A DNA stretch of 11,406 bases from a virus (lineage: Duplodnaviria; Heunggongvirae; Uroviricota; Caudoviricetes), in IMG/VR virus record IMGVR_UViG_2671181122_000011; one strand, written 5' to 3'. The first letter of the stretch is position 1. Each line of letters begins with the position of its first letter. This document shows positions 7,153 to 8,743 of this stretch, piece by piece. Position numbers and translations under genes: made by a program. Below the pieces are notes generated by a model that saw only the letters and a list, made by a program, of their open reading frames with translations, made no database searches and had not been told where the DNA came from.

Positions 7153-7346
7153 CCTCTCACTTTTTCGCCTCACTTTTTCAAGCGTCTCACTTCGTCGCAG
7201 TTGGGATTTTCGGTTTTTCTATGTGTGTGTTTCATAAGTATTTTTTTACCCCTCACTTTTGAGGATGTATACAGGTCGAAAAGTGAGGGAGAGCGGGCTA
7301 ATTTTGGCCCTCTTTCTATCCCCCTCGCTTTTGCTCCTCACTTTTA
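7153..7346. repeat. Iteron array with AT-rich spacer: candidate replication origin
   Basis: Six direct copies of C(C/T)TC(A/G)CTT(T/C)(T/G) plus one inverted copy: 7153..7165, 7166..7178, 7183..7195, 7249..7261, inverted 7278..7290, 7323..7333, 7336..7346. AT-rich stretch at 7201..7248. Sits immediately 3' of the rep gene. Confidence 0.6.
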
Positions 7347-8743
7347 TAGCGGCGCTACATCATCCCCATCGATACGAATAACCCCATCTTTTTCCAGCTT
7401 GTACAGCCAGCGCCGGAAGTTTTTCATTTCATACCCCAGCTTTTTCATGTCATCACGTAACAGCGGGATCGTGCACTTGTCGCCGTTCTGTGTGCGTGAA
7501 CGGATGCACCCCCATAGCGCGGTATGGTTTTCCGTCTTGTTCCCTGCCTCCTCGATGCGCTCCAGTTCAACAGGAGGGCGCGGATCATCCACCACCACCA
7601 GCGACGTGATTAATTCACCGTCAGCGTCGGTAAAAAGCTCCACCACGCGTAAGTCATATGCGGCTTCTTTGAGTTCCTCCGCGTCCTTCATTTTGGTGCA
7701 TGAGATAACCAGCGCTTCGCTTCCTGCGTCCTCCCTGCGTATCCGGTATTCAGCATCCAGCGAAGCACGAAATGCACTGGAACCGCGCGCGCCTTTCGTC
7801 TCATCCTTGCCGGAATGGTGAACCACCAGCACCGTGGCCCCTGTGCGTCGTTTCAGTTCGTCACAACCACGGATAAACGCCCCATATCACGGGAATCATT
7901 TTCATCATTCCCACCAAAGCAACGCGCCAGCGTATCCAGAATAATCATGCGTACAGGTTTACCCGTTTCCCGCTCCACCTGACGGGCAGCGATAACCATT
8001 TCATCAACATCAAGCGGGGCAGCCGGAAAGATGGGGCGGTTTACCAGATACAGATTTTTCACCTGCTCATCGTGCACAACCTCCCAGGCTTTTACACGAC
8101 GCGGAACACCTATACCGCCTTCACCAACCACATAGAGAACCGCACCATGTGCAACCCTGCGGCCTCCCCACTGGCGACCAGTGGCAACATGGCACGCCCA
8201 CGATCCGGCAAGGAATGATTTATAGGACCCGCTAGCCCCGTATATGCTGCATAGCGATACCGCCGGAATAATCCCCTTAACCACGTAATCCAGTTGCGTG
8301 TCGTATCCGGTAGATCCAACGCTCATCGGTAGCGTGGTTTTTCGCTGGTGGTTTTTTTCTTCCGCCGGCTCTTTCCCGCGCACCCGTTCCAGGTATTCGC
8401 GCCAGTTCTCCCGCATATGGCTGTGCATCCCTTCGGGGTAATAATTCGCATCAGTTACACCCGCCGCCGCCAGCTTGTGCGCAATGGCATTAATATTTGA
8501 TGGCCTGATGTGGCCTGCCTTGTACAGCCGGACACAATAGCGCCCCTCGTCGATGATTCTCAGGTCTGCCAGTTCATCCAGTTGATCATCAGCCAGCACA
8601 ACGGGAGGCACATTATCGCCAGCCAGTCGCCCGTCCTGTTCCTGCCACTGTTTCGCATGTGCCCAGGCATCACTACCCGCAAAAATAATGACTTCGGTCA
8701 TCTTGTCGTAAGGCTGTTTTTTTAAGTTCGGTGCGCTTTTCAT
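7344..8743 (-). pseudogene. Replication protein (AAA_25/RepA-type ATPase with N-terminal extra domain), split by a single-base frameshift
   Basis: N-terminal ORF 7853..8743 carries Walker A GASGSYKS and ends ...ENDSRDMGRLSVVVTN*. The downstream ORF 7344..7832 begins in another frame with ...AFIRGCDELKRRTGATVLVVHHSGKDETKGARGSSAFRASLDAEYRI (the conserved HH..K and RGSSA motifs). Restoring one G in the run at 7880..7883 (CCCC on plus) gives a continuous ...DMGAFIRG... reading frame. Confidence 0.75.

What the first reader, a model, noticed from the sequence alone, without database searches (positions are those of the whole stretch)
7344..8743. Replication gene interrupted by a single-base deletion in a homopolymer run
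Walker A and the conserved HH..K and RGSSA motifs lie in different frames and join perfectly if the C4 run at 7880..7883 is read as C5. This is either a homopolymer sequencing error or a genuine inactivating slippage mutation that would immobilise an otherwise complete-looking replication module. It is the only obvious inactivating lesion I see in the element.
Basis: seen in the sequence. Interest (0 to 1): 0.55.

Follow-up and report, generated by a model that had tools for sequence, protein, structure and literature searches.

The report
Frameshifted satellite replication helicase gene
A one-base deletion in a short run of identical bases has broken the replication helicase gene of a small phage-parasite island in one E. 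coli lineage; it is a real inherited mutation, not a sequencing slip, but it is an ordinary pseudogene.

Summary
On the minus strand, ORF A (8743..7853, 296 aa) and ORF B (7832..7344, 162 aa) are the two halves of one 466-aa RepA-family helicase (Pfam AAA_25). They are separated only by a C4 run at 7880-7883 that is C5 in intact alleles. Window 7300-8765 matches the intact gene of E. coli O103:H2 12009 with no substitutions and one 1-nt gap. Of 564 complete E. coli genomes carrying this segment, none has C4 and 421 have the exact C5 72-mer. Orthologues at 58-95% identity are all single ORFs, with DMGAFI invariant across the break. C4 is not a random read error. The same allele is in at least five public assemblies from different sources, on at least three haplotypes that differ by single SNPs, so it is inherited within one clone. 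I found no support for programmed frameshifting. The gene belongs to an ~11-kb PICI-like phage satellite next to phoQ, and a cluster of iterons (probable ori) follows its stop codon. The satellite stops at 8765, and position 8766 is an N in two near-identical public records. To the right of 8766 lies the right end of prophage e14 (pin, mcrA). Interest is low.

The parts
7853..8743 (-). ORF A: codons 1-288 of the RepA-family helicase (N-terminal domain, P-loop GASGSYKS, Walker B MIILD), then 8 out-of-frame codons (RLSVVVTN) and a TGA stop
   Evidence: Translation. Pfam AAA_25 matches residues 148-290, covering only profile positions 19-169 of 195. tblastn gives 100% identity to residues 1-288 of the intact protein.
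7880..7883 (.). Frameshift site: a C4 run on the + strand (G4 in the coding sense). Intact alleles have C5.
   Evidence: C5 in L001; C4 in the window, L002-L005 and L048; removing one C from L001 reproduces the window exactly.
7344..7883 (-). Codons 288-466 of the helicase in the -1 frame: HHSGKD, RGSSAFR, and a C-terminal helix-helix-helix-strand-strand domain. The mechanical ORF B starts at GTG 7832; the stop is at 7344-7346.
   Evidence: 100% identity to residues 288-466. In the AF2 model of a 94%-identical homologue (P0003) the last ~60 residues are confident (block mean pLDDT 81-91) with a winged-helix-like order of elements.
7156..7345 (.). Iteron cluster, the putative satellite ori: five exact copies of CTCACTTTT (one of them inverted) and one copy with one mismatch. 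It starts at the helicase stop codon and runs into the next gene.
   Evidence: All 5 exact matches in the 11.4-kb window lie here. None of 200 shuffles reached the observed total of 11 matches.
6895..7143 (-). 83-aa protein of unknown function (phrog_1231) between the helicase/ori and the SSB gene; intact
6485..6895 (-). Single-stranded DNA-binding protein of the satellite; intact
   Evidence: Pfam SSB, E=1.7e-16. Full length, 99.3% identical to L001.
2816..6474 (-). Rest of the satellite's right arm, all intact: PerC-family regulator (6205-6474), small ORFs, lambda E-like major capsid protein (4338-5393), D-like decoration protein (3990-4325), a 137-aa protein resembling the C-terminus of a head protease or scaffold (3564-3977), and a Nu1-like small terminase (2816-3358)
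8766..8766 (.). End of satellite sequence, at an unresolved assembly join. The window has A here. The otherwise identical public record L002 has N. L048 has N followed by 821 nt more of e14.

Best explanation
This is a genuine, recent, clonally inherited 1-nt deletion (G5 to G4 in the coding strand). It most likely arose by replication slippage. It lies in the replication initiator/helicase gene of a PICI-like phage satellite integrated between roxA and phoQ of E. coli. The intact 466-aa protein has three parts: an N-terminal domain, a RecA-fold RepA/DnaB-type ATPase core, and a C-terminal winged-helix-like domain. By analogy with SaPI/PICI Rep proteins and RSF1010 RepA, it would bind the iterons just downstream of its own gene, melt the ori and unwind DNA as a ring helicase. 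That would amplify the excised satellite after induction by a helper phage. The frameshift stops translation at codon 288 plus 8 junk codons. This removes the invariant HHSGKD and RGSSAFR motifs and the C-terminal domain, so the product should be inactive and the satellite unable to replicate on its own. What is shown: the lesion, its absence from other lineages, its inheritance, and the intactness of neighbouring genes. What is inferred: slippage as the cause, loss of helicase activity, the role of the iterons as ori, and the effect on satellite spread.
For: The lesion is exact. Window 7300-8765 equals the intact allele minus one C, with 0 substitutions, and both halves are 100% identical to WP_000833618.1. 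The single-ORF state is ancestral. The C5 72-mer is exact in 421 of 564 complete E. coli genomes that carry the segment, and none has the C4 71-mer. 60 of 61 metagenome and IMG/VR contigs have C5. Homologues at 58-95% identity from E. coli, Salmonella, E. albertii, E. fergusonii and Enterobacter are 465-472 aa, with D286-M287-G288-A289-F290 invariant across the break. phrog_2850 matches residues 1-466 end to end. The allele is real and inherited. The exact 296-aa product is encoded on 9 contigs from NCBI, ENA and Logan, and its NCBI accessions come from separate assemblies. L002, L003, L004, L005 and L048 all read C4. They differ from the window at different single SNPs: position 2881 in L003 and L004, and positions 3454 and 9270 in L048. 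The loss of function is plausible. AAA_25 is cut at profile position 169 of 195. The alignment to RSF1010 RepA (1g8y) runs straight through the break into HHxxK. The replication context fits: iterons are clustered at 7156-7345 and an SSB gene lies downstream.
Against: No read pile-ups were inspected, so support at read level is indirect (assemblies, and Logan contigs built from one public run). All C4 carriers are near-identical, so they count as one evolutionary event seen several times, not as independent mutations. Loss of activity and loss of satellite replication were not tested. A second satellite in the same genome could supply a related helicase in trans. The similarity to the solved RepA structure is marginal (E=0.005), and the fold search gave only weak RecA-like matches.
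Confidence: 0.88

Rival explanations
1. The C4 run is a homopolymer sequencing or assembly error, and the real genome has C5 and an intact gene.
For: The lesion is a 1-nt length change in a homopolymer. There are no other changes in the gene. No complete (mostly long-read-finished) E. coli genome has it. The window comes from a draft-quality scaffold that has an N 880 nt away.
Against: The identical allele appears in assemblies from at least four sources and several centres. These include a contig named NODE_491...cov_75.8 and a Logan contig built from one public run, plus an IMG genome. The carriers have different private SNPs, so they are different isolates. 60 of 61 other short-read contigs of the same gene read C5, so there is no systematic under-calling at this run. 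A run of 4-5 bases is not error-prone on Illumina (general knowledge).
Confidence: 0.05
2. The two-ORF layout is functional. Either a programmed -1 ribosomal frameshift on U-AUG-GGG-C makes full-length helicase, or the two polypeptides work as a split enzyme.
For: The required shift is -1, and a P-site tRNA-Gly on GGG could re-pair on the overlapping GGG (read directly from the sequence). The 0-frame stop lies only 9 codons downstream.
Against: The layout is not conserved. Every diverged orthologue is a single ORF. There is no X XXY YYZ heptamer. The 106 nt spanning and following the site fold no better than shuffles (z=0.17). The break falls inside a predicted helix of the RecA core (helix 280-301) between Walker B and the HHSGKD motif. 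ORF B begins at an internal GTG with no evident Shine-Dalgarno sequence (read from the sequence).
Confidence: 0.03
3. The G4/G5 run is a reversible phase-variable switch that turns satellite replication off and on within populations.
For: The lesion is a homopolymer length change that one further slip would revert. The gene carries no secondary decay.
Against: Only one clone carries G4. All five C4 assemblies are uniformly G4 despite their SNP divergence. Known phase-variable tracts are usually 7 nt or longer (general knowledge). Other broken copies of the gene are hit at other positions (L038 and L069), as expected for random decay.
Confidence: 0.03

Closest known systems
Intact allele WP_000833618.1, 'helicase RepA family protein', in the phoQ-roxA satellite of E. 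coli O103:H2 12009 (NC_013353.1) and several hundred other complete E. coli genomes
   Same: The nucleotide sequence is identical over 1466 nt apart from the one missing C. The neighbouring genes are the same: SSB, PerC, capsid, decoration protein and small terminase. The position next to phoQ is the same.
   Different: It is a single 466-aa ORF with C5. That element is complete, with DUF4222, an Icd-like gene, regulators and an integrase next to roxA.
RSF1010 RepA hexameric replicative helicase (PDB 1G8Y, 1NLF, 1OLO); Pfam AAA_25
   Same: It has the same RecA-fold ATPase core. The P-loop, Walker B (LDTL) and HHxxK motifs align colinearly across the frameshift site.
   Different: Sequence similarity is only marginal (E=0.005). 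The satellite protein has an extra ~140-aa N-terminal domain and an extra ~60-aa C-terminal winged-helix-like domain. Its P-loop reads GSYKS instead of GxGKS.
Rep/Pri-Rep initiator-helicases of SaPIs and Gram-negative PICIs, whose iteron ori lies directly 3' of rep (Penades and Christie 2015, from my own knowledge; PICI core genes as listed in PMC10085698 and PMC11773190)
   Same: The gene order is regulators, then rep, then iteron cluster, then a packaging module, in an ~11-kb island that has an integrase and no tail or lysis genes. PerC-family genes are common in Gram-negative PICIs (PMC11773190).
   Different: The helper phage, inducibility and ori function are untested. No AlpA Pfam domain was found in the left arm of L003. 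The packaging module carries lambda E-, D- and Nu1-like genes, not Rpp or Ppi.
cf-PICI EcCIEDL933 (bioRxiv 10.1101/2022.09.08.507074)
   Same: It is an E. coli satellite that encodes its own major capsid protein and small terminase. A helicase of the same family sits next to a Terminase_2/HK97-type capsid module in L006.
   Different: cf-PICIs are defined by also having TerL, portal, protease, head-tail connectors and HNH. None of these is present in this element.

Membership tests
RepA-family / AAA_25 RecA-fold replicative helicase | Pfam AAA_25 domain above the gathering score | tested here: met
   The repaired protein scores 148.5 bits (cut-off 27) over residues 148-315, profile positions 19-194 of 195. 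Window ORF A alone scores 108 bits but stops at profile position 169.
RepA-family / AAA_25 RecA-fold replicative helicase | P-loop (Walker A, GxxxxGK[ST]) and Walker B (hhhhD) | tested here: met
   The P-loop is GASGSYKS, with K175-S176 invariant in 16 homologues but Y in place of the second G. The Walker B is MIILD, with D270 invariant.
RepA-family / AAA_25 RecA-fold replicative helicase | All ATPase and DNA-binding motifs (through HHxxK and RGSSA) in one polypeptide | tested here: not met
   In the window, HHSGKD and RGSSAFR lie in the -1 frame beyond a stop codon. The gene is therefore a pseudogene of the family, not a working member.
RepA-family / AAA_25 RecA-fold replicative helicase | Similarity to a solved RepA/DnaB-type helicase | tested here: inconclusive
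   phmmer against RSF1010 RepA (1g8y) gives E=0.0054 over residues 150-321. Foldseek gave no match at E<=0.001; the weak matches include Rad51, RadA, KaiC and T7 gp4. The model's mean pLDDT is 65.
RepA-family / AAA_25 RecA-fold replicative helicase | Hexamer formation and 5'-3' unwinding | not testable with these tools
   This needs biochemistry.
PICI (phage-inducible chromosomal island), Gram-negative type | Integrase at one end, chromosomal site-specific insertion | tested here: met
   There is no integrase in the window. L001 and L003 have a 409-aa tyrosine recombinase next to roxA, at the far end of the same element.
PICI (phage-inducible chromosomal island), Gram-negative type | AlpA-family regulator | tested here: inconclusive
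   No AlpA Pfam hit was found among the left-arm proteins of L003. One 67-aa protein matches phrog_6196, 'transcriptional repressor'. L001 has an annotated 62-aa HTH regulator, which I did not scan.
PICI (phage-inducible chromosomal island), Gram-negative type | Replication module (pri-rep) with an adjacent ori | tested here: met
   The helicase gene is followed by an iteron cluster at 7156-7345. The gene is frameshifted in this lineage.
PICI (phage-inducible chromosomal island), Gram-negative type | Packaging-hijack module, no tail or lysis genes, size about 10-15 kb | tested here: met
   The element has a Nu1-like TerS plus E-like, D-like and scaffold-like genes. It spans about 11 kb between phoQ and roxA in L001, with no tail or lysis genes annotated.
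PICI (phage-inducible chromosomal island), Gram-negative type | Induction and transfer by a helper phage | not testable with these tools
   This needs an experiment.
cf-PICI (capsid-forming PICI) | Own TerL, portal, protease, head-tail adaptor/connector (and HNH) | tested here: not met
   None is present among the genes between phoQ and the helicase. The definition is taken from PMC10085698 and 10.1101/2022.09.08.507074.
Programmed -1 ribosomal frameshift gene | Two-frame layout conserved among diverged orthologues | tested here: not met
   All diverged orthologues are single ORFs.
Programmed -1 ribosomal frameshift gene | Slippery heptamer and downstream stimulatory structure | tested here: not met
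   The site reads U AUG GGG CGU, which contains no X XXY YYZ heptamer. The fold z-score is 0.17.

The most novel reading that the evidence does not exclude
The dead helicase is not neutral decay but part of the domestication of the satellite. On this reading, one E. coli clone has kept an intact lambda-type capsid, decoration, scaffold and Nu1-like terminase module together with PerC and SSB. That module could still interfere with lambdoid phage packaging, while loss of Rep (and perhaps separation from the integrase arm by the rearrangement at 8766) has locked the element in the chromosome as a fixed anti-phage locus.
Probability: 0.08. Interest if true: 0.4.

Novelty: already known. Interest (0 to 1): 0.14.

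Why it matters
It matters little beyond annotation. The two ORFs (deposited as 'putative prophage protein' and 'AAA domain protein') should be merged and flagged as one frameshifted pseudogene of a RepA-family helicase. The C4 allele could serve as a marker for the E. coli clone that carries it. The case shows that a homopolymer frameshift in a draft assembly can be checked without reads, by looking for the exact truncated product in independent assemblies. It also shows that a window can join two unrelated elements (a satellite and the right end of e14) across a scaffold gap, so claims that an element is 'complete' need checking against the assembly.

Tried and rejected
1. Recurrent truncation of the gene. 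The 90% cluster holds many 327-aa 'AAA family ATPase' entries (the P0081 cluster has 967 members; also P0005 and P0014). In both copies I looked up (P0081 and P0014), the protein starts 91 nt from a contig end. These are assembly truncations, not lesions.
2. Pin-mediated recombination as the origin of the 8766 junction. The 26-bp pix crossover site (8768-8793) is complete on the e14 side. The satellite sequence beyond 8765 in L003 (GTTAACCATGGTTTTCAG) is only a weak pseudo-site with a different central dinucleotide. The junction is not a half-site hybrid. I rejected this as a clean site-specific product.
3. A shared repeat or IS between the satellite left arm and e14 that could explain the join. 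blastn found none.
4. A scan of species-representative genomes for the C4 or C5 30/31-mer gave 0 hits and was uninformative.
5. Structure prediction and fold search to name the N- and C-terminal domains. The model has mean pLDDT 65, and Foldseek returned only weak RecA-like matches. Calling the C-terminus a winged helix rests only on the order of secondary-structure elements.
6. NCBIfam returned only sub-threshold RadA hits.
7. Literature search for a named E. coli satellite with E-, D- and Nu1-like genes. I found none in the papers read.

Full report
**1. The observation**

The run CCCC is at 7880-7883 on the + strand. The gene lies on the minus strand.

- ORF A (8743..7853, 296 aa) contains the P-loop GASGSYKS and the Walker B motif MIILD. 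It ends ...NDENDSRDMG-RLSVVVTN*.
- The -1 frame reads ...YGAFIRGCDELKRRTGATVLVVHHSGKDETKGARGSSAFRASLDAEY... and continues to the stop at 7344-7346.
- Both frames are open only between 7856 and 7886, so a frame change must occur there.
- The mechanical ORF list shows the halves as 7853..8743 (296 aa) and 7344..7832 (162 aa, GTG start).

**2. Comparison with intact alleles**

- A megablast of 7300-8800 against 5,426 complete E. coli genomes found 558 genomes covering at least 80% of the query. The best hits align 1466 query bases to 1467 subject bases and are annotated 'helicase RepA family protein'.
- I fetched one such locus, L001 from E. coli O103:H2 12009. There the gene is one 466-aa CDS, WP_000833618.1.
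- Removing one C from the C5 run of L001 reproduces window 7300-8765 with 0 mismatches over 1466 nt.
- tblastn places residues 1-288 at 8743..7880 and residues 288-466 at 7883..7347, both at 100% identity.
- A 71-nt probe centred on C4 has no exact match in any of the 564 complete genomes that carry the segment.
- The 72-nt C5 version is exact in 421 of them. The other 143 carry diverged variants, and those listed are annotated as helicase.

**3. The ancestral state is one ORF**

Full-length ones at 58-95% identity are 465-472 aa. They come from E. coli, Salmonella enterica, E. albertii, E. fergusonii, Shigella sonnei and Enterobacter cloacae.
- In an alignment of ten of them, D286, M287, G288, A289, F290 and I291 are invariant. 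The motifs on both sides of the break are also invariant: DTLARCFGG, HHSGKD and GARGSSAFRA (one search gives the 16-sequence version).
- phrog_2850 matches residues 1-466 end to end.
- Pfam AAA_25 covers profile positions 19-194 of 195 in the repaired protein, but only 19-169 in ORF A.
- RSF1010 RepA (1g8y) aligns colinearly through the break, from LDTL to HHxxK, at a marginal E-value of 0.005.

**4. Error or mutation**

The evidence points to a real, inherited mutation.

- The exact 296-aa product is encoded on nine contigs in the public gene index.
- I fetched four of them:
  - L002: NCBI GCA_001283345.2.
  - L003: ENA ERZ15610015, contig NODE_491...cov_75.8.
  - L004: NCBI GCA_000704845.1. 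The protein's NCBI name identifies the strain as E. coli 3-073-06_S1_C1.
  - L005: Logan SRR14872201.
- Both half-proteins carry several NCBI accessions from separate assemblies.
- All four loci read C4.
- A pattern scan allowing a 4- or 5-base run found 14 metagenome contigs and 47 IMG/VR contigs. Sixty have CCCCC. One, L048 (IMG genome 2671180903), has CCCC.
- The carriers are almost identical to the window but not to each other:
  - L002 differs only at 8766.
  - L003 and L004 share a T at 2881.
  - L048 differs at 3454 and 9270.
- The allele therefore sits on at least three haplotypes and is older than those SNPs. That is what descent within a clone predicts, and it is not what per-assembly error predicts.
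- Sixty other short-read contigs of the same run read C5, so there is no systematic under-calling.
- I did not see reads, so a small doubt remains.

**5. No support for recoding**

- The needed shift is -1, and a tRNA-Gly could re-pair on the overlapping GGG.
- However, there is no X XXY YYZ heptamer.
- The 106 nt spanning and following the site fold no better than shuffled sequence (z=0.17).
- The two-frame layout is absent from every diverged orthologue.
- The break lies in a predicted helix of the RecA core (helix 280-301 in the model).

**6. What the gene belongs to**

The window starts with phoQ (1..1461). A set of minus-strand genes follows, all full length when compared with L001:

- a 93-aa protein;
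- a Nu1-like small terminase;
- a 137-aa protein that matches the C-terminus of a head maturation protease family;
- a lambda D-like decoration protein;
- a lambda E-like major capsid protein;
- small ORFs;
- a PerC-family regulator;
- SSB;
- an 83-aa protein;
- the helicase.

In L001 and L003 the element continues beyond the helicase with DUF4222, small regulators and a tyrosine integrase next to roxA. It spans about 11 kb and has no tail or lysis genes. This is the layout of a PICI-type phage satellite as described in PMC10085698 and PMC11773190. It lacks TerL, portal, protease and connectors, so it is not a cf-PICI as defined in 10.1101/2022.09.08.507074.

Immediately after the helicase stop codon, CTCACTTTT occurs five times exactly (once inverted) and once with one mismatch, all within 7156-7345. 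These are the only exact copies in the window. An iteron ori directly 3' of rep is the usual SaPI/PICI arrangement (my own knowledge), so this is the probable ori.

The AF2 model has mean pLDDT 65. It gives a confident N-terminal alpha/beta domain (residues 1-110) and a confident C-terminal helix-helix-helix-strand-strand domain (405-466). Foldseek returned only weak RecA-like matches.

**7. Likely consequence**

The truncated product keeps the P-loop and Walker B. It loses HHSGKD, RGSSAFR and the C-terminal domain, all of which are invariant in the family. I infer a dead helicase and a satellite that cannot amplify after induction. This was not tested. The lesion is young: from about 6000 to 8765 the window differs from L001 only by one SNP and the missing base, while the head module is mosaic at about 95-97% identity.

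Broken copies at other positions exist in other lineages. L038 and L069 were the only other copies split by frameshifts among the 61 contigs examined. Occasional decay of this gene is therefore normal.

**8. The element is not complete in this window**

- Homology to the satellite stops at 8765, 22 nt upstream of the helicase ATG. DUF4222 gives no tblastn hit.
- From 8767 the window is the right end of prophage e14:
  - the complete pix crossover site TTCTCCCAAACCAACGTTTATGAAAA (8768-8793);
  - pinE;
  - mcrA;
  - icdC.
- L002 is identical to the window over all 11,406 nt except that position 8766 is N.
- L048 has the same start and end as the window and also has an N at 8766. It then carries 821 nt more of the e14 invertible segment before the pix site. 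That stretch encodes a tail-fibre assembly gene and a tail-fibre C-terminus.
- In L003, L004 and L005 the satellite simply continues into DUF4222.
- The first base after 8765 is C in L003-L005 and T in L001. The e14 side of the window begins at the inner edge of the invertible segment. Both are places where short-read assemblies tend to break.
- No complete E. coli genome has this junction.
- The gene orientations are those a chromosomal inversion between the satellite and e14 would produce, but I could not tell a real rearrangement from a scaffolding join.
- Either way, 8765|8767 is not literal contiguous sequence, and the window cannot show whether the element is otherwise intact.

**9. Verdict**

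The either/or resolves to a genuine, clonally inherited frameshift that makes a pseudogene of a satellite's RepA-family helicase. The claim of an otherwise complete element is not supported. This is a common kind of event in a known gene family, the allele is already in public databases, and interest is low.

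Noticed in passing
window 8765-8793; L002 9978; L048 8766-9587: The window joins two unrelated elements: a phoQ-side satellite and the right end of prophage e14. The join is at a base that is N in two near-identical public records. L048 has 821 nt more of the e14 invertible tail-fibre segment after the N. The orientation fits an inversion between the satellite and e14, but a scaffolding join is equally possible.
   Followed up: partly
window 7156-7345: Iteron cluster: CTCACTTTT occurs five times exactly (one inverted) plus one copy with one mismatch, starting at the helicase stop codon. It includes an 11-nt perfect inverted pair at 7250-7260 / 7279-7289. This is the probable satellite ori.
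   Followed up: partly
window 2816-5393: The satellite carries a lambda-type head set: an E-like major capsid protein, a D-like decoration protein, a 137-aa protein matching the C-terminus of a head protease or scaffold, and a Nu1-like TerS. It has no portal, protease, TerL or connectors. It is therefore neither a classical Rpp-type PICI nor a cf-PICI as defined in the papers I read. I found no named description of this type.
   Followed up: partly
window 8768-9402: A complete 26-bp Pin crossover site (pix IRR) lies upstream of an intact pinE. The ORF listing entry 8812..9402 over-extends the gene; the MLIGYVRVST start is at 8849. The invertible tail-fibre segment that Pin normally acts on is absent from the window.
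   Followed up: partly
window 10746-10791: About 816 bp present in K-12 (iraM and ymgK, NC_000913.3 ~1211629-1212444) are absent between icdC and ycgX. The window matches K-12 on both sides, with a 46-nt overlap of the two alignments.
   Followed up: no
L006 and L007, position 91; clusters P0081, P0005 and P0014: The P0081 cluster alone has 967 member sequences of a 327-aa 'AAA family ATPase'. In both copies I looked up, the protein is the helicase cut 91 nt from a contig end. This suggests that the N-terminal third of the gene plus DUF4222 is a multi-copy repeat, shared by co-resident satellites, that regularly breaks short-read assemblies.
   Followed up: partly
L038 5481-6875; L069 4448-5844: Two IMG/VR copies of the same helicase gene (97-99% identical) are broken by frameshifts at other positions. 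Both are broken near codon 130-135, and L038 has two further breaks. I did not check whether these are real or sequencing errors.
   Followed up: no
L004 1-4360 versus L003 5807-10001: Two carriers of the same C4 allele have different left arms. L003 has a 409-aa integrase next to roxA. L004 has a 413-aa integrase and a 409-aa Phage_ASH protein, and is only about 90% identical to L003 in the ~820 nt upstream of the helicase gene (DUF4222 and adjacent ORFs). This is either recombination within the clone or a chimeric assembly across co-resident satellites.
   Followed up: no
L006 2139-3574: A helicase of the same family (94% identical) sits upstream of a Terminase_2 small terminase and a weakly HK97-like (Pfam Phage_capsid) capsid gene. 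The replication module is therefore shared between satellites with different head modules.
   Followed up: no
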